A stretch of DNA of 63,726 bases, the filler included, from Aduncisulcus paluster (Eukaryota): assembly GCA_024181965.1 (NCBI GenBank). It is 16 parts of 16 records of this genome, joined end to end, with 100 filler letters (N's around TTAATTAATTAA, not from the genome) between each part and the next. Parts side by side here need not be neighbours in the genome. Positions count along the whole stretch, not along the records: positions 54,110 to 62,233 come from BQXS01000493.1; 15 more parts are not named here. The stretch is one strand, 5' to 3'. Under the pieces are notes generated by a model. That model searched no databases. It had not been told where the DNA came from and saw nothing but the letters and a program-made list of their open reading frames with translations. Made by a program: the position numbers and the translations under genes. This document shows, one piece after another, positions 2,254 through 63,726 of this stretch (the first letter of the stretch is position 1; each line of letters begins with the position of its first letter).

Positions 2254-2906
2254 TTTGGCAACCAAAAAGTGAACTTCATTTGTTGGAGCTCGAGTTCAAG
2301 GGAAAACAGAAATTTAACATATTATTCAATTGTATTATTTCATTTTATTTCGAAAAGGAAAATAATTCAACACTTGATGCAAGACCAGAGAGAAATTGAC
2401 CAAACTTCAAAGTTGCAACTGGCCAAGTTGGCCCCAATTAGGCGGGTTGAATTACGGGCGGCGAATGTCGGAGATATTAATTGNNNNNNNNNNNNNNNNN
2501 NNNGATCCATCCACTTTTGTAATCATTGAAGAAATAGAATACTGGCAAAATCCAAAGATTACAAAGGATAATAGCGAAATAACAAATAAAATTGTTGATG
2601 AGTTCATTTTGGCAACCAAAAAGTGAACTTCATTTGTTGGAGCTCGAGTTCAAGGGAAAACAGAAATTTAACATATTATTCAATTGTATTATTTCATTTT
2701 ATTTCGAAAAGGAAAATAATTCAACACTTGATGCAAGACCAGAGAGAAATTGACCAAACTTCAAAGTTGCAACTGGCCAAGTTGGCCCCAATTAGGCGGG
2801 TTGAATTACGGGCGGCGAATGTCGGAGATATTAATTGTAATTTATTATTCGATTGTATCAACATATAACGTACAATCAAAGGATATGACAAGAATACAAA
2901 TTAAAT

Positions 2907-3695
2907 CTACTTCTTGGCAGCCTTCTCAGCCTTACGTTTAACGAAGTTGAAAAGAACCCATTCAGATTGTCCAGTGAAGATGGTGAAAGCAGATAATCCA
3001 ATGAAGATGGCAATGGCAACAGTCTTGAACAAATTCTCGCTCAAAATCTTTCCAATGAAGGGGAAAGGAAGGACGCAAAGGATGTAGTAGAAAACACCGA
3101 TGAAGGCATTGGAGAAGGCGAAGAAGTTGGAGCCGTCGAATAAATTATCAGAGTCGTCACCTTCAAAGAGTTTCTGGATAGCAACCATAAGCTCATTTCC
3201 GTAAGAGACAAGGTAGACAGCGAAGAAAACGATGAAAATACAGCCCAAAGCATTGAAAATTGCACCGGGGGTGAGGAGCATTCCAGGGGTAAGCTCTTCA
3301 GTGGCAAGGTTGATAATGCTAATGATAAGGTCTATACGACCGATAGAAAGGTGGGTAGAGAGTCCGAATAAACTAGATTTGGAACCAGTGATCTTAGCAA
3401 AGTAATCTTTGGGGCCATAGAGAACCAAAATGAAGAGGATAACAGTGATAACCATATCAAGGGGTTCAGTAACACCGGGAACGGGAACTTCAGGGAAAAG
3501 GAAGTGGAGAACAAGGGGAATTCCAAAAGTGTAGAGGATACACCAGACGAAATTGTAGAAGAAAGATTTCTTCTCCTTGTGACTTGGGAAAGTGTTCTTC
3601 CAATCAAGAATGTTGAACAACTGGTCAGAGAAGACAAGAGTCTTGTGACCTCCAACCATGTTCAGGATGGTATTTAACTTATCAAAAATTTCCAT
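2907..3695 (-). CDS. Polytopic membrane protein, probable TRIC/TMEM38-like cation channel
   Basis: 262 aa with about 7 hydrophobic segments. WCILYTFG..LHFLFPE and ILVLYGPKDYFAK resemble TMEM38 motifs (MLxCFG..LLLGE, YLVFFCPxDLFYK). The basic C-terminus KAEKAAKK resembles an ER-retrieval signal. Confidence 0.55.
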   Translation of the reverse strand: MEIFDKLNTILNMVGGHKTLVFSDQLFNILDWKNTFPSHKEKKSFFYNFVWCILYTFGIPLVLHFLFPEVPVPGVTEPLDMVITVILFILVLYGPKDYFAKITGSKSSLFGLSTHLSIGRIDLIISIINLATEELTPGMLLTPGAIFNALGCIFIVFFAVYLVSYGNELMVAIQKLFEGDDSDNLFDGSNFFAFSNAFIGVFYYILCVLPFPFIGKILSENLFKTVAIAIFIGLSAFTIFTGQSEWVLFNFVKRKAEKAAKK

Positions 3696-4210
3696 GATAG
3701 ATTAAAACAATACACGACAAAAAATCCTGTTTCAGTTTGAATCTCGTGTAATCGAAATAAAACAGGGGTTTGTTGCAGAAAATATTAATAAAATACAAGT
3801 TTAATTGAATATCTTATTTTATGTCATCATTATATCCTGTGGGTAGAGATCCAAGAAAAAGAAGGACAAATTGACACTCAATACTCCTGGAGGATGTCTA
3901 GCAATTTGGATTTAGCTTTACTGAGAAAAAGGAGTTGAAATGTATTTTAAATAAGCACTAGGATTATTCAACTATGACCATGTTGAAATTATTTTTCTGG
4001 TTACGACGGAAATCGCCCGGTGGCGACAGTTCCTAACCGGCCAGAGTTTCGTGAAACTCCAGTATTGATCTTCTTAATAAATTAAGATATTATTTTTATC
4101 TTATTCGTATTCTTGGAACATTTCTCATATCTTTTGCCATCTTCGCGGACTTAGGAATGATACTCTGACCGAGTTGTGGCACTGGCCTGCTTTTTGACAC
4201 AAAACATTCA

Positions 4211-5276
4211 ATGGATAGACTTCAAGAGATAAGAAAGGTATGTTCTATTATTCCCATTTAGTTTTATTGTGTTTTGCGAAGTATACTTTCACTAATTTTT
4301 GAATTCTGTCTCTGACTCTTATTATATTGCGAAATAGGACCCTGAGTTAAACCCAGTTGATGACATTGAGGATATTGATCTTTTTGAAGATTCAGAAGAC
4401 TCTGCTTTTTCTCTTGATTCAGAGGATTCAAAAAAAGAAGAAGGTTCAAAGAAATCGGCCACAGAAATTTCATTGCCCTCATTTTATGCTGGTATCACTA
4501 AAATTCGTGAAATATTTGGTAAAATAGATGCTTTGGTCTCCCAACTCCGAACATTAACTCAAGCTGCTATTGATAGTCCCCACGCGCCGAATAAGAAAGC
4601 TAAAGCAAATACTGAGATTATTACAAATGCTTTAAGGAAGCATTTTGCATTTTGTCAAATTATTTTGAAGTCAATTAAAAAAATGAATGACGACCAGATT
4701 ACAGAACAAGGGAATCGTATTTCTGCTGAATTACGATCCAAAATCAATGTACATAAAACATTATCCCGTGAATTTTATTCTAGACTCACTGATTTTCAAT
4801 CTTTCCAGTATCATTCTAAGGAAACAATGATTCGGCGACTTGAATTACAGATTCGCACGATCGCCGACGATGATTCGGCAATAACAGTTGATCAAATCAG
4901 AGAGGAATATGATCGCGATGGTGGAGCTGAATTGTTAACGAAAATGTTAAAAGATGATCTCACTTCCGCAAAAAGTGAATACATGCTTGCCCGTGGGCGG
5001 CATGAAGATATTAAGCGAGTCGTTCAGACAATTCGTGAATTACATCAAATTGCCCGTGATTTTGCCTGGCTTATAGATGAGCAAGGAGAGATGCTCGAAC
5101 GTGTCGAGGCCAATGTTGCTTACGCCCGTGATTATACGAATGATGGAATTCAACACATTGACAAAGCAATGAAAAAGCAGAAAAGGAAGAGGAAATGCAT
5201 GTTTTGTTGCATGTGTGTCCTCATTATTGTCGCTCTGTTCTTGATCGCTGGTATCATGGTTGGAATATTGGTATAA
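4211..5276 (+). CDS. Syntaxin-1-like Qa-SNARE; exons 4211-4237 and 4338-5276
   Basis: Exon 1 encodes the syntaxin N-peptide MDRLQEIRK. A phase-0 intron (GTATGT...AATAG) joins it in frame to the 4473 ORF. SNARE motif RHEDIKRVVQTIRELHQIARDFAWLIDEQGEMLERVEANV, then a Cys-rich C-terminal TM anchor. Confidence 0.93.
4238..4337 (+). other. Spliceosomal intron (100 nt) in the syntaxin gene
   Basis: GTATGT donor, TAG acceptor, candidate branch point CACTAAT near 4290. Removal restores the reading frame. Confidence 0.85.
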
Positions 5277-5438
5277 TCAAAATGATATTAAAAATTTTTT
5301 ACATTAGGATTTTTTTCGAGTAAAGTATTGACAACTAGTATGTAATAGTCCAGGTGAAAGTTGACTCACAAGTTGTGAAAGGGGAAATAATGATTTTTCT
5401 GGCCATCTATATATCATTCGAATTGAATATCGATTTAT

Positions 5439-6744
5439 ATGCAATTCCAAACGACACCAGATAATCCTTCGATGTCAAGTTATAGTTTTAATCCCTCACG
5501 AATATTGGAAAGGATGAGATCCTCGAATCCTGCCATGCCAGAGTTAAGAATGCACTTAGAATCGCAAATGTTTCCATCGTCATCAAGTATTGGGGATCTT
5601 CGAGAAAGAATTGGACATTTAGAAGCTGAAAATTCGTTGTTGAAGACTGAAAATGATCGTTTGAAGTCTGAGAGTGCCAGATTGAAATCTGAACATGAAA
5701 AAGAAACTCAACGACTTTTAGATGCTTTACATAAGACTCAAGAAATGCTTTATTCCCTTATTCCGTCACAAAGACACTCTGATGCTGCATTTTCCCCTAC
5801 AGCTTCCAAAACACTTCGTCTTGTCTCCGGTGTTGCTTCAGGTGTTGCTGATTCGTTAACTCAATATCCACATGCCCCCCATAAGGCCAAGATACAATTA
5901 AAACCCCAATCACACCCGTCTGATCCCACTATTTCGAAAGAATTCATTCCAGACCCGAGTTCAACCCATTATCCTCGATCTTTCCCACGATCTGTTGAAT
6001 CTCCCCATCAATATGACCAAGGTGGGTTCGGCGGAGACTTTTCATATCCTCAACGTCCGACATATCCAAGCCATCCTCCTTCTCATCCTTATGACCATCA
6101 AGGAGGGGACTTCTCATCACATCACCGTCAACCTCAGTCTCAAGCATACCCACAGCCATCATATGGACCACCTCCTCAACNNNNNNNNNNNNNNNNNNNN
6201 TCCTCGATCTTTCCCACGATCTGTTGAATCTCCCCATCAATATGACCAAGGTGGGTTCGGCGGAGACTTTTCATATCCTCAACGTCCGACATATCCAAGC
6301 CATCCTCCTTCTCATCCTTATGACCATCAAGGAGGGGACTTCTCATCACATCACCGTCAACCTCAGTCTCAAGCATACCCACAGCCATCATATGGGCCAC
6401 CTCCTCAACAATATCCTCCCTCATACACTCAACATCAACATCCATCGACAACAAGAGATACTTCTCATCCTTCCACTGGTGGTCAGTATACCGGTGGTCA
6501 CAACGGATCAAGGATTATGCCATCATCACATTCGCAATCGAGACACCCTGTGCAACAAAAAGCTGTGCAACAAAAACCATTCAACCTTACTGTCAGGGCC
6601 AGAAGAGCCTCAGCAGATTCCAAGGAAACAGGAATGGATGCAAGAGATATGTCAAGAGATCCAACGACTATCAGGGCAAGGTCACCTGTTAAAAGGAGAA
6701 TTAAACCTTCTAGGAAGAAAGTAGAGAGAAAACCTTGGAAATAA
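5439..6744 (+). CDS. Hypothetical protein with N-terminal coiled coil and P/Q/S/Y/H-rich low-complexity region, split by an assembly gap
   Basis: ORFs 5439-6227 and 5995-6744 merge into one frame once the duplicated gap flank (5971-6180 = 6201-6410) is collapsed. Heptad pattern LRERIGHLEAENSLLKTENDRLKSE. Confidence 0.7.
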
Positions 6745-13908: not shown

Positions 13909-15670
13909 TTAAAGAAATACAACACATTTAATGCCATGTCTGCGGATTGTTTTTAAAATAAGCTGTTTTCCGACTTGAGAAATACTATTTTCTTTTAATA
14001 CTAACTTTTCCAATGTCTCCAAATGTAATAAGATCGAACATATTTCCTTAACTCCCTCATCTCGAATGACATTTCGACTCAGATCGATCTCTTGGAAAGA
14101 ACAGGCGGAAATTCCCTTTAATGCCGCTGAAATGTGTTTTGGCTTTATAAAATTGTGTGAAAGGTTGAGATGTCTAATGTTTTTACATCCTAATAAGTGT
14201 ACAACGTGTTCTTTCAAGTCACAACTCGACACATCCAATGTTCTGATACAAGGAAGTTTAGATATACATTTGCTCAACAACTGAATATCACGGCACCCGA
14301 GTGGATTTCCTTTCAGAGAGAGAGACGATAACTGGGTGAAATTGGATAAATATTCACACAATGACTTAACGTGCCTTTCAGAAATCTCATTACCACCCAA
14401 GAACAAAGAATAAACCTTATTGCAATATGACGACATGGCCTTCACGACTTTCACAACATTGGAATCAAGTCTATTTCCCTCTAAATTGAAGGAAGTAAGC
14501 ACAGGGGAGTGTTCCAAGAGCTTAACGAGAGCGTTACCGGTTGCTTCGTCTCTACCGGCCCGGTTATAACTCAGATCAAGTGTGTGCAAGGTCTTCACAT
14601 TCTTGAGAGATGCACAAATGACCTGGACACCTTTCCTGCCGAGCTGGTTATTAGAGAGGCTCAGTGATTCAAGTAGAGGTAAAGTGGAGAGGAATTTACA
14701 CACGCTCTTCACTCGTCCGAGTCCAATGTTACATCCACTGAGATCGACTTCATCGATCGATTCAACTCCCTCGGATCTTACACGTTCAATTAGTTTAAGA
14801 ACTTTGACCCTTTCGATACCACTCAAGGAAGCAGAGAGGAGATAACTCAGAGGAGAAGACGAAGAAGTCTGAGATAAGCTGGAAGATGATGCATTGGCCC
14901 CATCATAGCCACCCATGGACACTCCTCCACTCATCATTGAGCTAGACATGGGAGACAGAGAGGGAGATGTTCCACGTTGACCGTATTTGCCAAGGACACC
15001 ACCAGAGCCAGGAGGAGATAACATAGAAGAGTATCCAGATGAATTCAGGTGTTGTTTCTTACCACTAGATCCGACAGCAGAGAGAGATTGAGAGAGGGGA
15101 ACAGTGGATGAACTGATATGACCATGTCCAGACCTTCCCAGGGCCAGGGTAGTCGAACGCATGGGGGATGGAAGAGAGGAGGAGAAGGAAGTGGGAATAG
15201 AGGAAGAGGAGGAGGGACGAGGGTGAATAGGGGAAGACGGGGAGAAAGCAGAGGAGGACTTGTGGGGAGCAGGTGGGGATATTCCCAAAATAGGTTGAGA
15301 AACAATACGGAGCTCATTTTTCAATTCAAGAACCTGGTTCAAGAGGTCCTTTCGTTCAGAAATCCATGATTGTTTCTCTTCTTCCAATTGGGCAATGCGA
15401 CCTCTAAGGAGATCAATTTGGCGTTTACAAGCTTTCAAAGAGTATGATTTAGCACTTTTCGACATCCTTTTGGCCATATCTTCATCCAAATCCCTCTCTT
15501 TATCAACCAATTTACCGTAATCCATCTTCACAAAGGCGGGCTTATCGTCTTTCTTCTTCTCTTTTGCTTTGATTGGGGTTCTACGTTCTGTTTGAATAAA
15601 AGAAGTTACGTCAGGCTTAGTGGATTCTTTCTCCTTCTTGGCTTCTTCTTCTTCTTTTTTCTTACGCTCT
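13909..15670 (-). CDS. Coiled-coil, Ser-rich linker and ribonuclease-inhibitor-type LRR protein (5' truncated)
   Basis: About 28-aa LRRs (LESLSLSNNQLG, LHTLDLSYNRAG, LSSLSLKGNPLG, IDLSRNVIRDEG). The frame stays open upstream of 15531 to the contig edge. Confidence 0.85.
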
Positions 15671-15770: not shown

Positions 15771-15806
15771 GATGTGAGTTCATCCTCATTATCGTGTGTG
15801 CTCATC

Positions 15807-15843
<37 letters not shown>

Positions 15844-17110
15844 TAACTGCATCCTTGTATGCTGTATGCTCTAGTCTCTCGGGTACCAACAAGAAGTGCA
15901 TTGGAATAGGCTCTGATGCGTCTGTTGATGGAATATCCATTGTGTGTTCTGACGGATGGTATGGTGACGATTGTCTGTCCGAATGTCCTGTTGATGAGTA
16001 TGGGTATGAATGTGGGAATTATGATGGAACCGATACTTGTGACTCTGAAACACACACATGTACCTGCTCTTCATCTTCATCGTCACCTCTCATGACTGGT
16101 GACCTGTGTGAGATTGAGAGTGGAGTGACACTACTGTCTTCCCTTGGGATGGATGTTGCCCTCGTTGAAGCTATCTGTGAGTCCATATATGTTGATGATG
16201 CAGATGTTCAATCGTTATGTTCTTCTGATGAAAACATTCTCTCCTCGTTGACTGTGGATGATCTCTCCACCATCACATCTCTCACCATCCCAACAACTGT
16301 ATCTTCTCTATCAGGGCTTGAATATGCCGATCACCTTGAAATCCTTTCGTTTACACCAGGGAATACTCTCATCTCCGATCTATCACCCATAGCATCCTTA
16401 TCCTCGTTGTATGTGCTTGAGCTTGATTCACTTGAAAACATGGATGTATCACTTCTGAGCACATTGACGGATGCTGTTGGTGCTCTGAAGATGGATCTTG
16501 AGTCTGACACTTCACGATGGAATGGAACGTCTGAATCGTACTGTGTCGGTTTGTGCTCGTTGCATTCCTTGGAGATCAGCGGGAATGATGATTCCATTGG
16601 TTCTGACCTGTCATCGTTTTCTTCTTTGCTGAACAACATTGCCATGTGCAGTGGTCAGTGTGTCGACAGTTATGATGATGGAACGAAAGTGTATCCATTG
16701 TCATCCACTCTGACACATCTTGATCTGTCCTCCAATGGCATCTCTGACCCTACCATCGTTTCACTCCAACCTGGTCTCTCTGGTGTGACACATCTGACTC
16801 TGAGTGACAACTCCATCTCTGACCTTGTTCTGTTGCAACAAGCTATTGATGGTCTTGAGAATGTCGCATATGTTGATGTGAGTGACAATAGACTTGATTG
16901 TGGGTCGACTGTGTCTGAGTGTTTCGCAACCCTTAATAACCTTTGTGACCGTGATCTTTATGACACTAGTTCCTTTAGTGCTGTCGATTTCGGTAGTGAT
17001 GATGTTTTTGGGCCTGTCTCCCAGGATACAACTTCTGCATGTGGATCTGACTCTTCCTCTTCCTCTTCTTCTGATTCGTGCTCATATCTGGAAGATCATC
17101 GTGTGTGTGG
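15771..17110 (+). CDS. Fragment of an LRR plus Cys-rich/EGF-like surface-type protein; allele or paralog of the 54110-62233 gene
   Basis: 15771-16220 is nearly identical to 61809-62233. EGF-like CSDGWYGDDCLSECP...C..CTC...TGDLC, followed by internalin-like LRRs. Open at both contig edges. Confidence 0.88.
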
Positions 17111-29649: not shown

Positions 29650-30090
29650 CTATTTCAGAGATGGAACAATTCGGTGCACGGCCTCAAGCTCGACAGAAAA
29701 GTGGAATTGTTCGGACTCTGGTCTTTGTTCAACCTGGGAAAGGATGGATTGGAGAGAGGCAACAACAGCTCGTTTCGACAAGAGATGACGAGTACATCTT
29801 TCTTCATCGTCATGGAATCTACGCTTTCCGGTCCCTGAATGTTGTTGAACTTCAAGCGAGTGTTTCTTAAATTCTTCTTTATCATGTACTCTCTGTTTCT
29901 TTTCATCAGATAACGCAGACTGAAGATCTTTGAGAGATTGTGTTGTCGAAAACATAAAATCGGAAAGTTCTTTCTCCTTTCCTTCTTTTTTAAGACATTC
30001 TTTGGGTTCTATTTCTTTCTTTGCTTCTTGAGCTTTCTCTTGCTTCTTGTCAATCACGAATCGAATGCCATACAAATAAATAACGAAAGA
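29650..30090 (-). pseudogene. Orphan coiled-coil tail of the expanded family
   Basis: IYLYGIRFVIDK...SDF..STxQ...LSDEKxQRVHDKEEF...SLxSxLSQV is homologous to the C-terminal half of 41443-42267, but lies out of frame behind the stop of the upstream paralog. Confidence 0.65.
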
Positions 30091-30479
30091 AAGATATTCT
30101 ATAACCATGGAAGCATCGCTAATCGTTCAATTGTTGCAAGTTCATGCTCTTTGGCGGCTTTCATTTTCTCTTGCTTATTGTCAATCACGAATCGAATGCC
30201 ATACAAATAAATAAAATCTTGTTTTCCATCCAGCGTTGATATAACATGAATATCACAAGAAATAACATTATCAAGATCTATAGGAAACTCTTGCCAGAAA
30301 TAATGCCTTGGAGGCATCTCTCCCATTTGATATTCTTTTGTAATCTTCTTGCCATCTGATGTTGTGAATGTAGCATCGAAATCTTTGATTNNNNNNNNNN
30401 NNNNNNNNNNGAGCTTTCTCTTGCTTCTTGTCAATCACGAATCGAATGCCATACAAATAAATAACGAAAGAAAGATATT

Positions 30480-51184: not shown

Positions 51185-51284
51185 NNNNNNNNNNNNNNNN
51201 NNNNNNNNNNNNNNNNNNNNNNNNNNNNTTAATTAATTAANNNNNNNNNNNNNNNNNNNNNNNNNNNNNNNNNNNNNNNNNNNN

Positions 51285-52657
51285 TGTGATTCTTCCAGGA
51301 GCTATGGCTTTTCCTTGAGCAGAGATAGTATATCCAAGGAATTCGACTTGTTCGAAACCAAGACGGCATTTTTCGAAGTTAATCACCAGTCCAACTTCAC
51401 CACACCTCTCCAAAATGGTTTTCAGGTTATGGACGAAGTCGTCTTGAGATGTTCCCAGAACCAATATGTCGTCCATGTAGATGATACACCTGTCGTCGGC
51501 CATTAGATCACCAAACACCGCCTGCATTGTATATTGGAAGTGAGCAGGAGCATTTCGAAGACCAAACGGCATGCATGTATAGTGATAAATCCCAGTCGGC
51601 GTGCGGAATGCAGTAAACAACTGACAATCTGGATGTATGGGTATAAGGTTAAACCCATTGGAGAAATCTAGCGTTCCAAACACTTTCTTTCCTTCCAAGG
51701 AGTCTAAAATGTCGTCAATACGTGGTAAGGGGAACTGGAAGGGGACAGTGATGGAGTTGAGGATTCGGTAATCTATACATAACCTTTGGGAACCGTTCTT
51801 CTTTGGGACGATCACGACAGGAGAGTAGAATGGGCTCATGCTTTTTACAATGAGTCCCAGACCACTCAGCCTTTTGATCTCAGTCTTTAAGAACGTCTTG
51901 TGGGCATTGTTCACTCTACGACCTGAGGAAAGTGTAAACTTTTCACCGGGGATGAGCCTTATGGAGAATGGCTCAACATCGGCTGGTGCAGATCCACGTG
52001 AATCAATTTGAGCAGTGTATCTCTCAATGAGGGGTAAAATCATGAGCTTAAGATGCTTAGCAATCTCAATTTCCTCATGGGTGTCCTCCTCCAGGTCCAT
52101 AGCGTCATCAGGAGGAGGGAGTGCACTGGTAGACAGTAGAGAGAGTAAATCCTTCGACTTAATCGAGGGATATCCAATCACTAATGGCGTATCTGTTACA
52201 CCCATTTCTATAACCACCAGGTTCTCGAGAATAATAGTGGGGATGTGTCCAGGTGGACAGATCCTCAGCTTCAGGGATACTTCTTCCTCGGATTCAATGA
52301 TGGTGCCATCTCCAATAGTAATTCTGCGGGTCTGGTTCTTGATTGGGACGAATAAATCCTTCTTTAATGAACATATGAAGGCTTTGGACACAAAGGACAG
52401 TGATGCTCCTGAGTCCAGTAAAGCTTTCGTCTCGGAAGCAGTCTCACCCTTCGCATTGAGTAGATTGACAGGGAGAACAGGTCTATCATGCATGGCAGAA
52501 GTAGAGAACACCTTGAATGTGTGTGAGCTTCGATTGAGCGGGCAGTCTCGCTTATAATGTCCGAGTTGTTTACAACGGAAACATTTTACCTTAGAAAGGT
52601 CTCTTTGAACCCGGTTCATGGGGGCTCCAGCCGAAGAACAAGAAGAAGTAGACACTC
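51285..52657 (-). mobile_element. Ty3/gypsy LTR retrotransposon gag-pol fragment (zinc knuckle, protease, reverse transcriptase)
   Basis: CFRCKQLGHYKRDC, ALLDSGA, SPVVIVPKKNGSQRLCIDYRILN, TAF, MPFGLRNAPAHFQ, YMDDILV, VEFLGY in one open frame. Confidence 0.96.
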
Positions 52658-53493: not shown

Positions 53494-54009
53494 ATGAAAT
53501 ACATCTCTGTCGTATTTGCTAGCATTATTGCTATTGCCTTCGCCTACAGCCACAGTGCTTATGTGGCTTCTCAGGTTGCTGGTCGTACCTCTCTCTGGAC
53601 TCCTGGAGAAGTTACCAGATTCGCTTCCAGACAGGACTTCCTTAACGCTATCATGAGCGAAATTCCTGAAACTCCTAGAGGCTACCCTGTCCAACAATTT
53701 GTTATGAACGATGATCTTCCCGATGAGTTCGACTCTGTTGACCAATGGGGTGATGTGTGTCCCAAGATCGGAGAAGTCCGTGACCAACAATCTTGTGGTT
53801 CTTGCTGGGCTTTCAGTTCTTCTGAGTCTTTGGGTGACCGTTTCTGTATTGCTACCAACGGTGACTTGCTCCAAGATGAGTTCCTCTCCCCCCAATGGTT
53901 GGTTTCTTGTGATCCCTATGACAATGGATGCAATGGAGGAAATGGTGCCCGTGTTGGTTTCTTCTTCAAGAAAGACGGAACCGTCACTGATGACTGTGAC
54001 CCTTACGTT
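53494..54009 (+). CDS. Cathepsin B-like cysteine protease, N-terminal fragment (signal peptide, propeptide, catalytic Cys)
   Basis: Likely start MKYISVVFASIIAIAFA at 53494; LPDEFDSVDQW..C, VRDQQSCGSCWAF, DRFCI, LSPQWLVSCD, GCNGG. Confidence 0.93.
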
Positions 54010-54109
54010 NNNNNNNNNNNNNNNNNNNNNNNNNNNNNNNNNNNNNNNNNNNNTTAATTAATTAANNNNNNNNNNNNNNNNNNNNNNNNNNNNNNNNNNN
54101 NNNNNNNNN

Positions 54110-57100
54110 GTGTGGCTTCATTGAGGAATATTTCATATCCTGCAGTGATCGATTTCGATGGTTCTGCCCTTCTTGACTCTGATCGTGTTTGTCTACTCGA
54201 TGGAATTGAACACTTGACTTCCCTTTCTGGAATCTTGTTGCCGCATCACCAGGTTGAATCTCCTGAACTTCTAATTTGGCTCAACAATATCGACACTATA
54301 TCTTTTGCCAACAATCCTTCTGATGGGTTTTCTGATCTCTCGTTTATTTGTTCCCTTCACTCACTTACTGGTTTGAATCTTGCTTCAATTCCCTCTGTAG
54401 ATGCTCTTCCCGACACTTCCGAGTGTGCTGATACATACACCTCCTTGAGCTCTCTCAATCTCGCAGAAACATCCATTATTGATGTTAGTGCTCTTCTTGT
54501 TGCTACCGACTCTACCAATGTTTCGTTGACGGAGCTGATAATGAATGGTGTGTCGTTGTATGATGATGTTGCAGAAACGACTTCATTGTTTGACCCATCC
54601 ATTCTTGAGAGTTTCTCTTCCATCACATTCTTGGAACTCGCATCCCTGGGTCTTGTAGATTCCGATCTCTTATCCATTGTGCATCTTCCTCTTGTTGAAT
54701 TGAATGTTGCTGATAATTCCCTTGTTGATATCTCTCCTTTATATCAATTGAATGGTGACTTGGCCACACTCGATATCAGCTACAATTCCATCTGTCTTGA
54801 TGGAGTTGATTATGATGACGGTTCCGCATTGTATGATTTCTTCCCTGGAGCTAATTCAAGTGCTAATCCTCCTCCCATCACATCTTCCTCACAGGACACT
54901 TCTTCCTGTGGTTTCTGTTCATCCTCTGAGACTGCTGGAGATGGTACTGATGATCCCGTTATTCATTGTTCAGATACTTCTTCTGCCGCGTCTCTTTCCT
55001 CCAACACGATCTGTCGTAAAGTGTGGGACTGGACAGAAACTGTTGAAGAAGATGATGGCTCTGGTGGAGTTACCACAACCACAATTTACCACGAACAATG
55101 GAGTGTGGAGTGTAATCTGTATAGTTACAAAGTAGATAATGGAGATGGCTCAAGTTCATGTGTGTCATANNNNNNNNNNNNNNNNNNNNTGATTATGATG
55201 ACGGTTCCGCATTGTATGATTTCTTCCCTGGAGCTAATTCAAGTGCTAATCCTCCTCCCATCACATCTTCCTCACAGGACACTTCTTCCTGTGGTTTCTG
55301 TTCATCCTCTGAGACTGCTGGAGATGGTACTGATGATCCCGTTATTCATTGTTCAGATACTTCTTCTGCCGCGTCTCTTTCCTCCAACACGATCTGTCGT
55401 AAAGTGTGGGACTGGACAGAAACTGTTGAAGAAGATGATGGCTCTGGTGGAGTTACCACAACCACAATTTACCACGAACAATGGAGTGTGGAGTGTAATC
55501 TGTATAGTTACAAAGTAGATAATGGAGATGGCTCAAGTTCATGTGTGTCATATCTTGATGAATCGGATAACTACACTCCTCCTGCCTCATTCCCCACGTG
55601 TGTAAACTTTTCCTTGGATAATTTGAATATTGAGTGTTGCGATAACTATGGTAATGATAACTCTTGTATTGAAGGATGGTATGGTTCCTCTTGTGATGAG
55701 AAATGTCCTTCAATTAACTATGAGATGTGTGGTGGATATGGTGATTGCTCTGATGCTACACATACATGTGTGTGTAATGATGGAATGACTGGAGAATTCT
55801 GTTCAGAAATGTCAAATGTTGCTCTATCTGCTTTTATATGTAACAATTTATCTGATTCTTCCAAAGTTGAGCTTGTACCTGGTGAATCAATTTCATGCTT
55901 TGGCGATAACTCAGAGGAAATGCTTCCTTCTGACTTGATTAAGATCAAATACTTGAATTTATCAGGTGAAAGTGGTAATATTACGACATTGGAAGGGCTT
56001 TCTGCTGCCACAAATCTTGAGTCACTGGATATTTCGAACTTGACATTCGATTCTGATGAATATTCCTCTTTAAACTTATCTTTGTTGCAAGATCTTTCAA
56101 ACCTTTATACTTTAAATATTGCCAACACGAATGTTATTCTTGATGCTGATTCGAATCTCCCTTCTTCTCTTATTGAAGTTAACATTGACAACACTGATCA
56201 AACATCCTTCGAGTTTATCCCAACTGGAGTACAGATTTTATACGCTAATTCATGTACTAATCTTGGAACTTTTTTGGATCAATTGAAGGAATTCGAAGAT
56301 CTCACTGTTCTTGAGCTTTCTGGTTGTCAGATATCTGATCCATCCCCATTGTATGTGCTCGATTCTCAGCTCACTGACCTTGATATCTCCTACAATAACA
56401 TATGTGGAAGTGACATTTCCTCTGTCATGAACTCAAAGTTCTCGCACGTCGATGTAATTTTTGGGAATCAAACATGTTTCTGCCCTGGATTTACTGAAGA
56501 ACTTTTGGGAGACAGCAAGGTCTGCAGTGAGACCAAGCCTGGGTCTACCGCATGGTATGTTGTGTGTGCCAGTGATTCATACATATCATATACTGATGCA
56601 TCGACATTTTCATGCTTTTCTCCTCTCAATTCAGACAACACCACATATGGATGTGCTGGAGGATGTGCGTATGGGTATGAATGTCGAAAGGATTCAGAAT
56701 CAGACCCTCCTGCGTGTCAACAAGTCATTGTTGATGTTGAACTCCATTCCTGTGTTGCTGATATGTTTGGTGATGACGAGACACATGTCATTGTTGGGAC
56801 TGCTTCTGATGGCGTATCTGAATTGATGTTGTTCAGTGTGGCTTCACTGAAAACTCTTGTGAGTGTGGAGGACATTTATACCGGTGCATACGTTCCCATG
56901 TTATCTTGTTCCTATTCCACTGTGTCAAGTGTGGCTGGAATTGAACATTTAGTCAATGTTAAAGAAATTAAATTGATTCAGTCATTTGATTCTGGTAGTA
57001 TTGTGGATCTTAAATATCTATCAAGTTTATCAAATCTTTTGAATTTATACTTACCTTGGAACAGTTGTTTGACTACACTTCCTGATATGACTTTGTTGAA

Positions 57101-60100
57101 CCTCGAAATATTGAATATCGAAGGCACTAGTATCGCTTTGCCCGCGAGCACTGACACTTCCACTCTACTTCCAAGCTCATTACAATATCTATTTATGTAT
57201 GATACACCAACTGAACAAGATGCTTTTGATATTCAAGTCGGTGTAGACAATTTGTTCAATTTGAAAACGATTTCTTTGGGTAATAATGATAATATTAGTT
57301 CTATATCTTCCCTCACAGGTCAACTTGAACAAATTATAATCAAAAATACAACAGCTATCACAGATTTGGTGACTGTTATCGAGTCTAAATGCATTTTGAC
57401 TTCTGTGAAGCTCGTAAATGTCGGTTTGAGTTCCATTCCCAATCTATCAAATTCTCAAGTTACACTCACTTTCCTCAACTTGTCTAATAATAGCGACATT
57501 TCAAGTGTTTATCCAATAATCAAATATGGTTTGACAAATCTTTATCGATTTGTTTGTTCAAATTGTTCCCTTTCTGATTTATCACCCTTGTATTCCTTGC
57601 CCTATTTGCTAGAGATCACTCTCATTGGAAATAATTTCTGTTTAAGTTCTGGAAACACGGAAGCCCTTGTCTCTAAGTTCTATAATAACGAAGCTGATGA
57701 TTTCAAGCTTAATCTTGGATCTGAGCTTTCGACTGATCAAACGTGTGAATGCTCTTTTGATGACATTGGATATACCGATACTTTGATTGCTTCCAACAAG
57801 GTATGCAGTGAGACTCTTCCTGGGTCTGGCACGTGGTATATTGTTTGTGCCAGTGATTCTGTCACCTCTTACACATCTGCTGAGGACTTTACGTGCATTT
57901 CTCCAGATAATGGTGATGGAACGTATGGATGTTCTGGAGGGTGTGAGTATGGATATGAGTGTAGATATGATTCAGAGTCGACTTCATCATCGTGTCAGCA
58001 AGTGATAGTTGATGAGAACTTGCATGCCTGTGTTGCTGACATGTTTGGTGAAAATACTGATCACATTTCGGATTCTTCTGCATATATTCCCATATTCAGT
58101 GTTGCATCCTTGAGAACTCTTGAGAGTGTTCTCGATAGTGAAACTCAGCAATATTCCCCCATTTTGAAATGCAATAGTGTTGATATCACAACTCTTGATG
58201 GAATCGAACATTTGGTGAATGTTTCTGAGGTTGACCTTACTGATGTAACAACAATAGAATCTGCAGATCTAATTTTGATTTCCACAATGTCAAAACTCAA
58301 AGGTTTGGTTCTTTCAGGTTGTACTTCGATCTCGTCTTTACCCGATTTGTCACTGGTTCCGCTAGAATCTCTTTTTATGGCTGGTACAAATATCACTTTG
58401 CAAGACACAATCGATCCGACATTGTTGTTACCTTCAAGCTTGAAAGTTCTTTCGATTCTCAATGTACTGATTACTCAAGAGCAATTCTCTGCCCAAATCA
58501 GTGTGAATAATTTGCCAAATTTAGAGTATCTAATTTTGGGAGGGGAAAATTCCTCAATTAACAGTATTTCCACACTTGGCACGAATATCACAACTCTGAA
58601 AATTGAAAGCACAAATTTGATCACCGATATTCCTGTTACTGTTTCTAGTTTGCTTCTTGAAGAGCTTGATTTAATTAATATTGATTTGGATGTGATCCCT
58701 GATCTCTCGAACAGCCAAGAAACTCTGAAAACTCTCAGTATTTCCAGTAATTCCAAACTCTCTTCTGTGCATGAGGTTTTTGAATATGGTTTGACAAAAC
58801 TTGAAACGTTGACTTTCATGAATTGTAATGTTTCTGATTTATCTCCATTGTATTCTTTGGGCTCTTTAAATAATATCAATGGAAAAGGAAATAAGTTCTG
58901 CATTGGTTCTGAAAGTGTGGCAACATTGTCTGAAAAGTTCAATAATTCCGAAATTAATCTCGATCTTGGCACTGACCTCGCGACATCCCAATCATGCCAA
59001 TGTTCCTCGATCGCATATGATATTGATTCCACATACACTCCAATTACAGATAACATTGTCTGTAGCGAGACTAAGTCTGGGTCTACCGCGTGGTATGTTG
59101 TGTGTGCCAGTGATTCATTCACGACCTACACTGACGCATCGACATTCACGTGCACTCAGCCTGAGTCAGCCACCACGAACTGTTCTGGAGGCTGTGAGTA
59201 CGGATATGAGTGTAGATATCTTGGTGATGATGATAATGGTGACTCTGAGGCTTCGTGTCAACCTGTGATCGTTGATGATAATTTGAGACAATACATTGCT
59301 GATAACTTGATCAATGACTCTACTCACATGGATGACTCTGATTCCTCGATTGCTCCAAAATTCAGTGTGGCTTCATTGAGGAATATTTCATATCCTGCAG
59401 TGATCGATTATTACACATCGGAAGATTCTGACAAAATCCAAAATGTAGACGGTATTGAACACCTTGGATCTTCTCTAACGAATCTTATATTGAACTTTAA
59501 TCTTATCTCCGATCCATCTCCACTTAAAACTTTGACATATCTCACTAATTTGTCTCTTATGCAGAATGTTGATATCGATGACATGTCATTCATTTGTTCT
59601 TTGACTAATCTTGACTCTCTCAATATGAATTATACCTCATGTTCCAGTATCCCTGCCACAGAGCTATGTTTATCAACTTATTCGTCGCTGCATGAATTAT
59701 ATCTTGTGTCAACGTCTATTCTTGACATTTCCCCACTTTTGTTTGAAGAAGATCCTAATGGAGATTCAAATATTAATTCAACACTTACTACCTTAGACTT
59801 GAATTCTGTTTCTAAATATGATGAGATTAGTGATTCGTATGAATATTTCGATATTTCAATCCTTCAAAGTTTCACTGCCATTGAAGCAATTGATCTTCAA
59901 AGTTTGGGCATTGAGAATGAAGATCTTCAATATCTTATGCATCTCCCCTTGAAATCTTTATGCTTAATTACAAATAATATTTCAGATTTGTCTCCAATTT
60001 TACATTTCAACAAAACTCTTACCTTGTTATATCTCGGTTATAACCGAATTTGTCCGTATGCGGACGTTATTGACAGTAATATTGAGTTTTATCAGACATA

Positions 60101-62233
60101 TTTCCCTCTTCTTGAAATTATAGGATTCAGAGGAGAGGATACATCAACTTGTTCTTATTGTTCTGAATCTACAACAACCTCTGATGGCTCTGTTGATAAT
60201 CCATATATTCATTTCGATGGGACTCAAGATCCAATCGTTACGGCTGGTTTTGCTTCCAACACGATCTGTCGTAAAGTGTGGGACTGGACGGAAACTGTTG
60301 AAGGAGCAGATGATGGCTCTGGTGGAGTGACCACAACCACAATTTACCACGAACAATGGAGTGTGGAGTGTAATCTGTATAGTTACAAAGTAGATAATGA
60401 AGATGGCTCAAGTTCATGTGTGTCATATCTTGATGAATCGGATAACTACACTCCGCCTGCCTCATTCCCTACGTGTGTGATATCTTCCTTGGATAATGTA
60501 AATGCTGAATGCTCTGACCTGACAGGTTCTGATATTTCTTGTATTGAAGGATGGTATTCTGGCTCTGAGAGTGAACTATGTATTTATGAATGTCCAACTC
60601 AAGAGAACGATGAAGGCCTATTGCTTCCTTGTGGAGGTGAAGAGGAGGGCTATGGAGTATGCGATATGGAATCACATACATGTAAGTGTGAAGGCAGTTA
60701 CACAGGCGATGCATGTCAATATGTCAATTTTACAAACTCTGTTCTCGAATCCTTCTTGTGTGACCTTGATGAAATCGATTGTAGTGGCTCTGATGGACAT
60801 TTGACACCTGATATTCTCGCTACAATTACCAAACTTGACCTATCCGATGTTTCTCTTGTGTCTGAAGATGATGAATATTCGATTTCTGATGCTCTTGATG
60901 GGTTGAGGTTCGCTACATCCCTTGAAGAGCTTGATCTGAGTGTTTTAGAGTTCACTATTGGTCTGACATATGACTTATCTGAATTGAGTGAGCTATCTTC
61001 TCTCAAAACTTTGAACCTTAGTGGTAATGATATGTCTTCAACATCTGAACCCTCGTGTGAGTCCAATATTGCTGCACTTCCGTCTTCTTTGACCACTTTG
61101 ATATTGGATAATGTCGGACTTGAGGAGACAGATGCCGATTTCTCTGGTCTTTCTCAACTCGCTACTCTGTCAGTACGTGATAATCCGACTTTCAACCCCG
61201 AAGATGATGAAGAATTCACAGCTAGCTCCCGTTTCTCAGCTTCATTGCAAAATCTCAACATTGGTGGTTGTTCTGAGATTTCAGATATCTCATTTATTCC
61301 AACTTATCTCACAACTCTGATTGCTGATGGATGTTCTCTTGACGAAACCACTGATTTCTCTGCCTTTTTAAGCCTTACGACTCTTGATGTGTCTGATAAT
61401 TTGGATTATGATGTCACGAATGAAGTATGTTTGCCTGAATCTGTCACATCATTTTACGCTGCAAACACTTCAATTTCTCAAATATATGAGATAACTATTA
61501 TGTTACCAAATGTTGTAAACCTTGATTTGAGTGATAACAGCATCTCTGACCCATCTCCATTGTTCTCACTCTCATCCACTCTCACCGCACTTGATCTGAG
61601 TGGTAACAATATCTGTGGCATGGATGATGAAGAGGAAGTGAATGCTTTCGTTTCTACCTTCCCGCTGTTGACAAGTGATGAGTCTACCATATTTGCTAGC
61701 AATGTATGTCCATGTGATGATGATTCCATCTCACTCTCATCCAATATCGTCTGCTCTGAGCTCTGGCCTGGCAAGTATTCTGCAACATGTTGTTCATCAT
61801 GTTACACCGATGTGAGTTCATCCTCATTATCGTGTGTGCTGATCGATGATGATGAAACTTCTGCATCCTTGTATGCTGTGTGCTCTAGTCTCTCGGGTAC
61901 CAACAAGAAGTGCATTGGAATAGGCTCTGATGTGTCTGTGGATGGAATATCCATTGTGTGTTCTGAAGGATGGTTTGGTGATGATTGTCTGTCCGAATGT
62001 CCTGTTGATGAGTATGGGTATGAATGTGGGAATGCTGATGGAACCGATACTTGTGACTCTGAAACACACACATGCACCTGCTCTTCATCTTCATCGTCAC
62101 CTCTCATGACTGGTGACCTGTGTGAGATTGAGAGTGGAGTGACACTACTGTCTTCCCTTGGGATGGATGTTGCCCTCGTTGAAGCTATCTGTGAGTCCAT
62201 GTATGTTGATGATGCAGATGTCCAATCGTTATG
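54110..62233 (+). CDS. Giant modular LRR plus Cys-rich/EGF-like protein (more than 2500 aa, both ends truncated)
   Basis: One frame once the gap duplication (54807-55169 = 55190-55551) is collapsed. At least six LRR blocks, opened by SVASL/GIEHL or GL..AT.LE motifs and closed by SDxSPLY...NxxC caps, alternate with Cys-rich linkers. Confidence 0.92.
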
Positions 62234-62333
62234 NNNNNNNNNNNNNNNNNNNNNNNNNNNNNNNNNNNNNNNNNNNNTTAATTAATTAANNNNNNNNNNN
62301 NNNNNNNNNNNNNNNNNNNNNNNNNNNNNNNNN

Positions 62334-63726
62334 GTTTGACCCTCCTTTGTCTTTCTTTTTCATGCCTATCCTGAATTTCTCTTGCCAGTTCATGAAATTT
62401 ATCCAGTTTGTCACGATATGATTTCACAAATTCAATCGATCTCTCCTTAGTTTGTTTGTTGCTTAATTTTAGATCCTCGATATGAATAGATTTCTTGAAC
62501 AAATCCATCATCTCTGTTCCTTTTCGTGCGAAAGCCATTTCGAAAGGAGTGAGGCCTGTACTGCTATTTACTTGTGTGTTCATATAAAAACGACATATGT
62601 AAATAGCTTCATCCCATTCGTCCTTCCTAATCTTCCTTGAACCAAGAATTGCTTTCAGAAATCTTAATAATTCTTTGTTACTTCTTTCGACAATCCCATT
62701 TCCTTGAGGGTTTTCAACAATAACTCGGTGATGCTTGAGGCCAAGGGATTTAATGATACACTCCCATAAAGAGTTCACGAACTGGCTCCCATTGTCAGAT
62801 CGTATGATCCCTGGTACCCCATACCTGGTGATAAAACGATTAAGGAGAACCTTTCCAGCCTCTTCGGCTGATGTTGACTGAATGGGGAAGAGCTCGATAA
62901 ACCTTGTGAAGGTGTCAATTGCCGACAAAACATATTTGTTTCCCCCAGATGATTCTCGAAATGGGCCGATAGTGTCAACAGCAATGCAGAAAAACGGGCG
63001 ATCCTCCCATGTAACAGCTGGTGTAATAGTCTTTGAAATAGACATTCGATCACGTTGACAGATTAAACAGTCATGTACAAAAGACGTCACATCTCTCTTC
63101 ATCCCTTTCCATCTAACATCCAACTCCTTCAGACCACGCAGAGTAGCATTAATTCCAATATGGCGACTATCATGTACATGCCCAATTAATTCTTTCTTTA
63201 AAGGAACCGCCCCTTTCGGGATAAAGACAGAGCCGTCTTTAACATGTAAGCCCAAGTCATTTTGGGGCAAATCTTTGCATTCAGGGAACTTTTCCTGCTC
63301 TTCCACAATTCTCTGAATCCACATAGATTTCGAGTCAAGTCTGGCCACAGATTTCACTTGATGTCTTGGGATCAATCCGGTGAGTCGCGACAGACAATCA
63401 GCGGCTTCATTGGTTCTACCCGGTATATGATGGATACTGAAACTGTAATCCATTAGTCTAAGCCACCAACGTGTTACTTTCGCATTTTTCACCCTCTGGA
63501 TGAAAGTGAGATTTCTATGATCGGTAAATAATTTGAAATGTCTGTTTTTCAGGTAATACTCCGCTTTGGAGATGCAGAAAACAATTCCATAAGCTTCTTT
63601 TTCATAAACCGACCACCGTTTCTGAACCGAACTCAGTGCCTTCGACATATACATGATGACTTCTCTTTTTCCTTCAAATTCCTGCAGCAAGATCCCCCCA
63701 ATTCCGATATCGGAGGCATCAGTGTA
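62334..63726 (-). mobile_element. Ty3/gypsy LTR retrotransposon pol fragment (RNase H and integrase)
   Basis: TDASDIGIGGIL, EKEAYGI, FTDHRNL, NEAADCLSR (RNase H); H..RHIG...CLIC (HHCC); AVDTIGP, IDTFTRF, SDNGSQF, PQGNGIVERSN (DDE). Confidence 0.96.

What the first reader, a model, noticed from the sequence alone, without database searches (positions are those of the whole stretch)
54110..62233. Giant LRR array with hypervariable LRR blocks between near-identical DNA linkers: candidate cassette-shuffling receptor system
Seen: the protein is a chain of LRR-block plus Cys-rich-linker modules. The modules starting at 54110 and 59365 share an identical 45-nt entry (54110-54154 = 59365-59409) and a near-identical exit of about 220 nt (55383-55601 vs 60255-60478), yet the LRRs between them are heavily diverged. 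A second linker type (VCSETxxGSxxWYxVCASDS...GGCxYGYECR...CQxVIVD) recurs three times, near 56520, 57800 and 59060. Established: internalin-like LRRs bind ligands; lamprey VLRs and parasite surface antigens diversify by recombination at conserved flanks. Inference: a large family of prey-, virus- or self-recognition proteins diversified by recombination or gene conversion at conserved linkers.
Basis: partly seen in the sequence, partly recalled or inferred. Interest (0 to 1): 0.8.

Follow-up and report, generated by a model that had tools for sequence, protein, structure and literature searches.

The report
Giant mosaic LRR surface-receptor gene fragment
This is one short-read contig from the free-living flagellate Aduncisulcus paluster, carrying part of a giant membrane receptor gene whose cysteine-rich connector pieces are kept nearly identical between copies, most likely by gene conversion, while most leucine-rich binding blocks have drifted far apart.

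Summary
But 54110-62233 is one whole 8,124-nt contig in a window of concatenated contigs from the short-read Aduncisulcus paluster draft. The 45-nt 'entry' starts at the contig's first base and is the tail of a two-copy repeat of at least 208 nt. A perfect 363-nt duplicate around a 20-N gap is a scaffolding artefact.

The gene is an open-ended fragment of about 2,580 codons: six LRR blocks (internalins rank first by fold) joined by two kinds of Cys-rich connector. Paralogues show signal peptides, EGF-like repeats, one transmembrane helix and a cytoplasmic tail. At least 53 gene models belong to the family, all from A. paluster.

The L1 connector core (221 nt, 97% identical) has dS 0-0.18 while its flanks are saturated, so selection alone fails. 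The three L2 copies here have dS of 0.5 or more, so selection suffices for them. Connectors have 26-250 times the k-mer depth of LRR blocks. Connector and LRR identities are uncoupled across paralogues.

Best reading: germline short-tract gene conversion in a lineage-specific receptor or adhesin family. Nothing supports VLR-like somatic shuffling, and module order needs long reads.

The parts
54010..54109 (.). Artificial contig-joining linker (N44-TTAATTAATTAA-N44); the contig starts at 54110
   Evidence: One search lists 15 such linkers in the window; one search shows the sequence
54110..54154 (+). 45-nt tail of an L2c-type connector, identical to 59365-59409 and cut off by the contig end
   Evidence: P0007 residues 1704-1788 equal the first 85 codons here, and the rest of that connector lies upstream in P0007
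54112..54806 (+). LRR block A. From about 54412 it is multi-copy among paralogues
   Evidence: LRR_4; 90% or more identity in 1-8 of 52 models
54807..55169 (+). First copy of an exact 363-nt duplicate: an unmerged scaffold overlap
   Evidence: (D2)
55170..55189 (.). 20-N scaffold gap
55190..55850 (+). Connector L1: C-flank of block A, Cys-rich core, EGF-like unit (55704-55808) and cap of the next block
   Evidence: (EGF_Teneurin 19.7 bits and EGF_2 16.7 bits, both below cut-off)
55383..55603 (+). L1 core tract, 97.3% identical to 60255-60478; dS 0-0.18
55851..56519 (+). LRR block 1, single-copy
   Evidence: best paralogue identity 0.38-0.62; X2 depth about 1,340-1,610
56520..56855 (+). Connector L2a; a near-identical twin exists in P0007
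   Evidence: (0.99)
56856..57800 (+). LRR block 2, single-copy, with N-terminal helical cap; the modelled module
57801..58115 (+). Connector L2b
   Evidence: (70% or more identity in up to 33 paralogue sites)
58116..59057 (+). LRR block 3, single-copy
59058..59409 (+). Connector L2c. 59202-59409 is a perfect Logan contig at 2.1 times the flank depth, which indicates two genomic copies
   Evidence: record 13, depth 2,726 against 1,292-1,302
59410..60134 (+). LRR block 4, the diverged counterpart of block A, single-copy
60135..60770 (+). Connector L1', containing core tract 60255-60478
60771..61670 (+). LRR block 5, single-copy
61671..62233 (+). Connector L1'' (Cys-rich plus EGF-like), multi-copy; the contig ends inside it
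   Evidence: 90% or more identity in up to 10 models; X2 depth 111,000-327,000
15771..16219 (+). Paralogous copy of L1'' at the start of another contig in the window
   Evidence: 90.9% nt identity to 61809-62233; dS 0-0.14

Best explanation
The region is one contig carrying an internal fragment of an intronless gene, about 2,580 codons after collapsing the gap duplicate and open at both ends. The gene encodes a giant surface protein of Aduncisulcus paluster.

Shown: it is a chain of six LRR domains, each with an N-terminal helical cap, joined by two kinds of Cys-rich connector. L1 carries an EGF-like unit. L2 has no known relatives.

Shown in paralogues only: an N-terminal signal peptide, EGF-like repeats near the membrane, one transmembrane helix and a basic cytoplasmic tail. 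That makes the family type I membrane proteins.

Inferred function: a receptor or adhesin that binds extracellular ligands such as prey bacteria, substrate or other cells.

Inferred from the dS and discordance data: the family evolves as a germline mosaic. Short-tract ectopic gene conversion, roughly 200-450 nt, repeatedly homogenises connector segments between modules and between genes. Most LRR blocks have diverged too far to pair and so evolve independently. Some exchanges also end inside LRR blocks.
For: Organism and family: the contig's own model P0003 and 18 long plus 34 short relatives are all named A. paluster, and all but one are marked partial.

Architecture: self-comparison; LRR_4; the AF2 module has pLDDT above 90 across the LRR. 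Internalins are 9 of the top 10 Foldseek rows. InlF is first in VIA at Z 24.9, rmsd 4.2 A, 295 residues aligned, and InlA aligns from its residue 39, so its N-terminal part is covered.

Topology: transmembrane helix plus tail in P0053 and P0054; signal-peptide-like N-termini in P0012, P0020 and others. The first 69 residues of P0054 are 93% identical to this contig's 3' end.

Gene conversion:
- L1 core dS is 0-0.18 and dN 0-0.05, against pS 0.64-0.90 in the LRR part.
- 0 of 2000 shuffles reach the tract score.
- L1'' against the 15771 contig has dS 0-0.14.
- Two blocks of about 125 and 150 aa are almost identical between P0007 and this contig, with diverged flanks.
- Of 12 L2 pairs at 95% or more identity, 0 of 8 testable upstream LRR bodies reach 90% (median 0.32), and both testable downstream bodies are 0.23 and 0.41. 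Reverse cases also exist.
- 5 L1 pairs at 90% or more have downstream LRR median 0.29.

Independent of the assembly: summed k-mer depth in run X2 is 34,000-327,000 over connectors against about 1,290-1,960 over LRR blocks. Perfect k=31 contigs cross three of the four tract edges.
Against: - All joins across connectors rest on 150-bp paired reads with about 500-bp fragments, assembled by MaSuRCA. No listed Logan contig bridges a connector core. Chimeric joins or consensus-like collapse could therefore inflate both the connector identity and the discordance.
- Runs X1 and X2 come from one sample and may be the assembly's own data.
- The three L2 copies in this contig show no sign of conversion with each other.
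- Across the family the contrast is weak: 118 of 242 Cys-rich windows against 352 of 843 Cys-poor windows have a match at 90% or more in another model. Block A is multi-copy.
- dS could be computed only for DNA inside this window. Paralogue comparisons are at protein level.
- The tool warns that summed depth is not a copy number.
- Ligand and function are untested.
Confidence: 0.6

Rival explanations
1. Mostly an assembly artefact. A short-read assembler collapsed or mis-joined a repeat-rich family, so the near-identical connectors and the connector/LRR discordance are products of chimeric contigs and consensus-like repeats rather than of real recombination.
For: The assembly is short-read only, with N50 4.6 kb and 25,863 contigs. 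The contig starts and ends inside multi-copy segments. The 363-nt gap duplicate is a proven artefact; 4 of 6 gaps in the window show such an overlap, 3 of them perfect. 9 of 54 family models carry exact adjacent duplicates. All but one of the 53 models named are partial. Pairs that are about 97-99% identical on one side of a connector only are what graph mis-joins would produce.
Against: The two L1 tracts lie in one contig, differ at 6 of 221 positions and have sharp edges. Independent k=31 contigs with zero mismatches cross three of the four edges. K-mer depth does not depend on the assembly, and it shows connectors as multi-copy and LRR blocks as single-copy. Collapse cannot create unique LRR flanks attached to shared cores.
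Confidence: 0.2
2. Plain purifying selection. The connectors are structurally constrained Cys-rich domains and the LRRs are free to vary, with no recombination needed.
For: The three L2 copies in this contig have dN 0.11-0.65 with dS 0.5 to saturated. Cysteines and many other columns are invariant across 17 modules.
Against: Selection on the protein cannot hold synonymous sites. dS is 0-0.18 in the L1 core and 0-0.14 in L1'' against saturated flanks. The same L1 core is only about half conserved in the more distant paralogue P0014, judged by eye from the printed sequence. Connector and LRR identities are uncoupled.
Confidence: 0.07
3. Programmed or somatic cassette shuffling, as in lamprey VLRs: cells assemble different receptor genes by copying LRR cassettes between the conserved connectors.
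For: Only the anatomy supports this: conserved joints flank diverse LRR blocks, and there are many connector copies.
Against: The gene is one uninterrupted open frame of 2,347 codons after the gap. Every LRR block is covered by single, perfect contigs at uniform depth. All 10 listed joints have sides of 35 nt or less and lie in or at the edges of connector regions, as other paralogues' connectors would give. Contigs cannot show rare variants, so this evidence against is weak.
Confidence: 0.03

Closest known systems
Trichomonas vaginalis BspA-like (TvBspA) family
   Same: A very large lineage-specific family of LRR surface proteins in a metamonad. It has 911 entries, 193 of them with a transmembrane domain and cytoplasmic tail, and its authors suggested recombination as a source of diversity (PMC2843621, passages read).
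   Different: TvBspA uses TpLRR repeats, and another paper equates BspA-like proteins with Pfam LRR_5 (PMC11437800). Here Pfam gives LRR_4, LRR_8 and LRR_EndoS and no LRR_5. TvBspA proteins are 58-1865 residues long. Here the models reach 5,239 residues with several capped LRR domains and Cys-rich connectors. The host here is free-living.
Listeria internalins (InlA, InlF, InlH)
   Same: They are the best structural matches. InlF scores Z 24.9. InlA aligns over model residues 49-427 against its residues 39-338, so the N-terminal cap plus LRR solenoid is covered.
   Different: Sequence identity is only 18-22%. Other LRR proteins (FBXL2, Roco, SDS22, designed LRRs) score within 2-4 Z units. No Ig-like inter-repeat domain is seen. 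The protein is eukaryotic, with a type I transmembrane anchor in paralogues, and it is multi-domain.
Slit-type architecture in animals (recalled, not tested by any search)
   Same: Several LRR domains, each bounded by Cys-rich flanks, followed by EGF-like repeats.
   Different: No Pfam LRRNT or LRRCT hit was returned. The L2 connector has no relatives outside A. paluster among those that could be named. The resemblance is in layout only.
Lamprey VLR somatic assembly (recalled)
   Same: LRR diversity sits between conserved flanks.
   Different: The germline gene here is a complete open frame. No non-coding intervening sequence or loose partial cassettes were seen.
Mosaic multigene surface families shaped by ectopic gene conversion, such as Plasmodium var and trypanosome VSG (recalled)
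   Same: Patches of near-identity alternate with deep divergence among paralogues, and trees disagree along the gene.
   Different: The protein fold and the organism are different. Nothing is known here about switching or exclusive expression, and this is a free-living bacterivore rather than a parasite.

Membership tests
Leucine-rich repeat proteins (Pfam LRR_4 type) | Repeated LRR motif recognised by the family profile above its cut-off | tested here: met
   LRR_4 scores 88.4 bits against a cut-off of 27, E 2.4e-25. The AF2 model shows a regular strand/helix solenoid with pLDDT above 90.
Listeria internalin family | N-terminal helical cap followed directly by an LRR solenoid | tested here: met
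   InlA and InlF align from their residue 39 to model residue 48-49 onward, Z 21-25. Other LRR families score nearly as high.
Listeria internalin family | Ig-like inter-repeat domain after the LRR (definition recalled) | tested here: not met
   Only about 50 residues lie between the last repeat and the next connector, modelled as two short helices and one strand. The InlA alignments stop at its residue 338.
Listeria internalin family | Bacterial wall anchoring through LPXTG or GW modules (recalled) | tested here: not met
   Paralogues P0053 and P0054 end in a single transmembrane helix and a cytoplasmic tail. This contig itself has no end.
BspA-like / TpLRR proteins | TpLRR repeats (Pfam LRR_5, as used in PMC11437800) | tested here: not met
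   LRR_5 is not among the Pfam hits for the contig protein or for P0014, P0053 and P0054 at E up to 0.01-0.1.
VLR-like somatic assembly system | Incomplete germline gene with a non-coding insert, completed from flanking partial cassettes | tested here: not met
   The frame is continuous over 2,347 codons with no stop. LRR blocks are covered by single perfect contigs.
VLR-like somatic assembly system | Cell-to-cell differences in module order | not testable with these tools
   Only contigs of bulk runs were available, and contigs drop rare variants.
Gene family under ectopic gene conversion | Tracts with near-zero synonymous divergence inside otherwise saturated paralogue alignments | tested here: met
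   L1 core dS 0-0.18 against pS 0.64-0.90. L1'' dS 0-0.14. Not met for L2a/b/c against each other.
Gene family under ectopic gene conversion | Discordant relationships of adjacent segments across paralogues | tested here: met
   at protein level only and on short-read gene models.
Gene family under ectopic gene conversion | Mosaic structure confirmed on molecules that span whole modules | not testable with these tools
   No long reads are available, and the whole genome is not held.

The most novel reading that the evidence does not exclude
The connectors may be more than passively homogenised. They could serve as the recombination joints at which whole LRR blocks are reassorted between the many paralogues in the germline. 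That would give a free-living bacterivore a combinatorial repertoire of giant surface receptors for prey or self recognition, a protist counterpart of cassette-based receptor diversification. The one-sided identity breaks at connectors fit this reading (for example upstream 0.97, connector 0.94, downstream 0.34). A short-read assembly could also fake them.
Probability: 0.3. Interest if true: 0.7.

Novelty: new variant of a known kind. Interest (0 to 1): 0.45.

Why it matters
Expanded LRR surface families that evolve as mosaics are known mainly from parasites and from animal and plant immunity. Here one appears in a free-living anaerobic flagellate related to Giardia. The genes are unusually large, with models up to 5,239 residues. 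The L2 connector domain was found in only 43 of 1.84 billion representative proteins, and every one that could be named is from this species.

No paper in the searched library describes the family. The genome note does not mention it, and only one paper contains both 'Aduncisulcus' and 'leucine-rich'.

If the mosaic holds up on long reads, the family would be a tractable case of how short conserved islands channel gene conversion while binding domains diversify. It would also be a candidate prey-recognition or adhesion system in a lineage used to study the origin of parasitism.

It is also a warning. The deposited gene models carry scaffold-gap duplications and are broken at exactly these repeats.

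Tried and rejected
- Whole-genome search: no genome is held for this window. I could not collect all genomic copies. dS was limited to DNA inside the window, and all other paralogue comparisons are protein-level.
- Expression: no RNA holder is listed. X1 is only guessed to be RNA.
One search named only P0061.
- L2 connector: no Pfam family (best E 0.094), no PDB sequence match (best E 0.61) and no protein-atlas hit. Its AF2 core has pLDDT 32-52, so its fold is unknown. I do not claim it is a new fold.
- Enrichment of contig ends in multi-copy segments is weak: N ends 18 of 34, C ends 35 of 48, interior windows 144 of 288.
- The idea that all LRR blocks are hypervariable: rejected.
- Real tandem duplication at 54807-55552: rejected in favour of a scaffold overlap. 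Collapsing it keeps the reading frame, by my arithmetic on the coordinates.
- dN/dS above 1 in LRR blocks: not assessable, because dS is saturated.
- Supplementary tables of PMC11437800 and PMC2843621 were not seen. They may list LRR counts that bear on the claim that the family is undescribed.
Full report
**What the window is.** The window is not a continuous piece of a chromosome. It holds 15 artificial joins of the form N44-TTAATTAATTAA-N44 and six 20-N gaps. The finding's coordinates, 54110-62233, are exactly one unit between two joins, with one 20-N gap at 55170-55189. A protein search names it. The translated contig is 100% identical to 'hypothetical protein ADUPG1_000890, partial' of Aduncisulcus paluster, on a contig of 8,124 nt. 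I read the genome announcement in full (PMC9933649). It describes 150-bp paired Illumina reads from fragments of about 500 bp, a MaSuRCA assembly, 25,863 contigs, N50 4.6 kb and BUSCO 40%. It does not mention an LRR family. Neighbouring contigs in the window therefore say nothing about genomic context.

**Check of the observation.**
- The 45-nt identity is exact and exactly 45 nt long.
- The 'exit' is 55383-55603 against 60255-60478: 221 aligned columns, 97.3% identical, longest exact run 70 nt. None of 2000 codon shuffles reached its segment score.
- The LRR part between entry and exit is 40-56% identical in nucleotides.
- The second connector begins at 56520, 57801 and 59058.

Three points change the picture.
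- First, 54110 is the first base of a contig. P0007, a model on another contig, ends with 85 residues identical to the first 85 codons here. Upstream of them it carries an L2c-type connector almost identical to 59058-59409. An independent k=31 contig of run X2 covers 59202-59409 without a mismatch, at 2.1 times the depth of the unique flanks. The 'entry' is therefore the tail of a two-copy repeat of at least 208 nt, and about 440 nt judged from the protein.
- Second, 54807-55169 and 55190-55552 are identical over 363 nt on either side of the 20-N gap. Of the six 20-N gaps in the window, four show such an overlap, three of them perfect, and the others lie in unrelated contigs. Nine of 54 family gene models carry exact adjacent duplicates. 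This is an unmerged scaffold overlap. The deposited model P0003 translates it as a repeat of about 100 residues. Collapsing it keeps the frame and gives about 2,580 codons open at both ends.
- Third, LRR block A is shared at 90% or more with up to 8 of 52 paralogue models.

**What it encodes.** Self-comparison gives this order: LRR block A, L1, LRR, L2a, LRR, L2b, LRR, L2c, LRR, L1', LRR, L1''.
- Pfam finds LRR_4 and sub-threshold EGF-like matches in L1.
- An AlphaFold model of one L2-plus-LRR module, built on 17 family modules, has mean pLDDT 80 and values above 90 across the solenoid. The Cys-rich L2 core reaches only 32-52.
- Listeria internalins fill 9 of the top 10 Foldseek rows.
- InlF is first by VIA-align at Z 24.9, rmsd 4.2 A, 295 residues aligned. 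InlA aligns from its residue 39, so its N-terminal part is covered. Other LRR proteins score only 2-4 Z units lower.

The blocks are thus capped LRR domains for which internalins are the top-ranked fold match. They are not members of the internalin family: there is no Ig-like inter-repeat domain and no bacterial anchor.

Paralogues supply the missing ends. P0012, P0020 and others start with signal-peptide-like segments. P0053 and P0054 end in EGF-like repeats, one hydrophobic helix and a basic tail. The first 69 residues of P0054 are 93% identical to this contig's last residues. The family is therefore most likely a set of type I membrane proteins with giant ectodomains.

**Family size and spread.** Two word-based searches returned this contig's own model P0003, 18 long and 34 short A. 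paluster models, all but one marked partial. Beyond those came only four weak, generic LRR hits. An exhaustive profile search with the L2 connector found 43 representatives among 1.84 billion proteins. Seventeen of them are named A. paluster, including a 5,239-residue model on a 17.2-kb contig. They are 28-100% identical, over their best local alignment, to the named ones. L2 has no Pfam, PDB-sequence or atlas match.

**Selection or recombination?** I ran Nei-Gojobori windows of 30 codons.
- In the LRR part, module A against its counterpart at 59367 gives pS 0.64-0.90, which is saturated.
- In the L1 core, dS is 0.11, 0.06, 0.00 and 0.18, with dN of 0.05 or less.
- Just beyond the core, dS rises again to 0.6-1.6.
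- The L1'' end against the copy that opens the contig at 15771 has dS 0-0.14.

Protein-level constraint cannot hold synonymous sites, so these tracts are young. They are recent copies laid into old, diverged modules, which is the signature of short-tract gene conversion. The tracts are also richer in GC, 0.44-0.45 against 0.33-0.36 in LRR blocks.

By contrast, the three L2 copies in this contig have dS from 0.5 to saturated and dN 0.11-0.65 between each other. For them, purifying selection is enough. L2a and L2c each have a near-identical twin in P0007 instead.

**Discordance across the family.** I compared 67 full-length L2 cores in 2,211 pairs.
- Twelve pairs are 95% or more identical. Their upstream LRR bodies (8 testable) have median identity 0.32 and none reaches 0.9. 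The two testable downstream bodies are 0.23 and 0.41.
- One-sided cases exist: connector 0.93 with upstream 0.24 and downstream 0.99; connector 0.94 with upstream 0.97 and downstream 0.34.
- So do reverse cases, for example connector 0.46 with downstream 0.91.
- For L1, five pairs at 90% or more have downstream LRR median 0.29.

The contrast between conserved connectors and variable LRRs is weak over the family as a whole. Of Cys-rich 40-aa windows, 118 of 242 have a match at 90% or more in another model. Of Cys-poor windows, 352 of 843 do. The family is a patchwork in which any segment may be shared, and connectors are shared somewhat more often and in more copies.

**Evidence that does not depend on the assembly.** I laid Logan contigs of two runs from one sample on 55190-62233.
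- LRR blocks sit at about 1,290-1,960 in X2. Connector bins reach 34,000-327,000, which is 26-250 times higher.
- In X1 the figures are 386-818 against 2,079-5,439.
- Of 1,777 X2 contigs laid, 674 were 99% or more alike, 551 were 95-99% and 552 were 90-95%.
- Perfect contigs cross three of the four L1 tract edges: 55565-56353, 59380-60283 and 60425-61598. None of the listed contigs bridges a connector core.

The tool warns that summed depth is not a copy number, and that the best holder may be the assembly's own sample. Shared cores attached to unique flanks are therefore real in the reads. Which left flank goes with which right flank is not proven.

**Mechanism and rivals.**
- Most likely (0.6) is a germline multigene family of giant receptors or adhesins. 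Short conserved islands keep exchanging by ectopic gene conversion, and LRR blocks that have diverged too far to pair evolve apart.
- An assembly artefact is the main rival (0.2). It certainly explains the gap duplicate, the contig ends and perhaps some one-sided breaks.
- Selection alone is refuted for L1 and sufficient for the three L2 copies (0.07).
- VLR-like somatic shuffling has no support (0.03). The frame is continuous, LRR blocks are covered by single perfect contigs, and the 10 listed joints have sides of 35 nt or less in or at the edges of connector regions.

**Comparison with known systems and novelty.**
- The closest biological parallel is the TvBspA family of Trichomonas, with 911 entries of which 193 have a transmembrane domain (passages of PMC2843621). 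It uses another LRR type and its proteins are much smaller.
- A diplomonad survey searched LRR Pfam domains but reports no such family for Aduncisulcus (passages of PMC11437800). It is the only paper in the library that holds both 'Aduncisulcus' and 'leucine-rich'.
- Searches found no description of this family. I could not see the supplements.

I rate this a new variant of a known kind: a lineage-specific, giant, multi-domain LRR receptor family with a private connector domain and a gene-conversion mosaic. It needs long reads before any claim of cassette shuffling.

Noticed in passing
window 1-63726: The window is a concatenation of 16 contigs or scaffolds joined by 15 N44-TTAATTAATTAA-N44 linkers. 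Gene neighbourhood across linkers is meaningless.
   Followed up: yes
window 2150-2503, 5972-6200, 30030-30410: Other 20-N scaffold gaps also have the sequence after the gap repeated just before it: 334 and 361 nt perfect, 209 nt imperfect. Two further gaps (9279, 22948) do not. This is a systematic unmerged-overlap artefact of this assembly.
   Followed up: yes
paralogue models P0005, P0008, P0011, P0015, P0017, P0021, P0026, P0061: These deposited gene models contain exact adjacent duplicates of 23-179 residues, probably the same gap artefact translated into protein.
   Followed up: partly
window 53494-54009 (+): The 5' part of a papain-family (Peptidase_C1, E 6e-20) cysteine protease gene with a signal-peptide-like start, cut off by the contig end.
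   Followed up: partly
window 51237-52655 (-) and 62278-63690 (-): Retrotransposon pol fragments on two separate small contigs: zf-CCHC plus RVT_1 on one, and RNase H plus integrase zinc-binding and core domains on the other.
   Followed up: no
window 13909-15531 (-): Another LRR protein of a different repeat type (LRR_6 and LRR_1). blastn and tblastn did not relate it to the family studied here.
   Followed up: no
window 15771-17110 (+): A contig that opens with an L1''-type connector and continues into an LRR block. Its translation is 94% identical to P0033, and P0054 carries the same kind of connector start. It represents the 3'-proximal part of a paralogue.
   Followed up: partly
window 55190-55424: The first part of L1, a Ser/Pro-rich stretch before the Cys-rich core, has the highest summed depth in the 5' half of the stretch: 287,771 in X2, with 9-30 distinct contigs per variant site. 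Only the last bin, 62005-62233, is higher at 326,798. It may be the most repeated piece of the family, or its low complexity may attract contigs.
   Followed up: no
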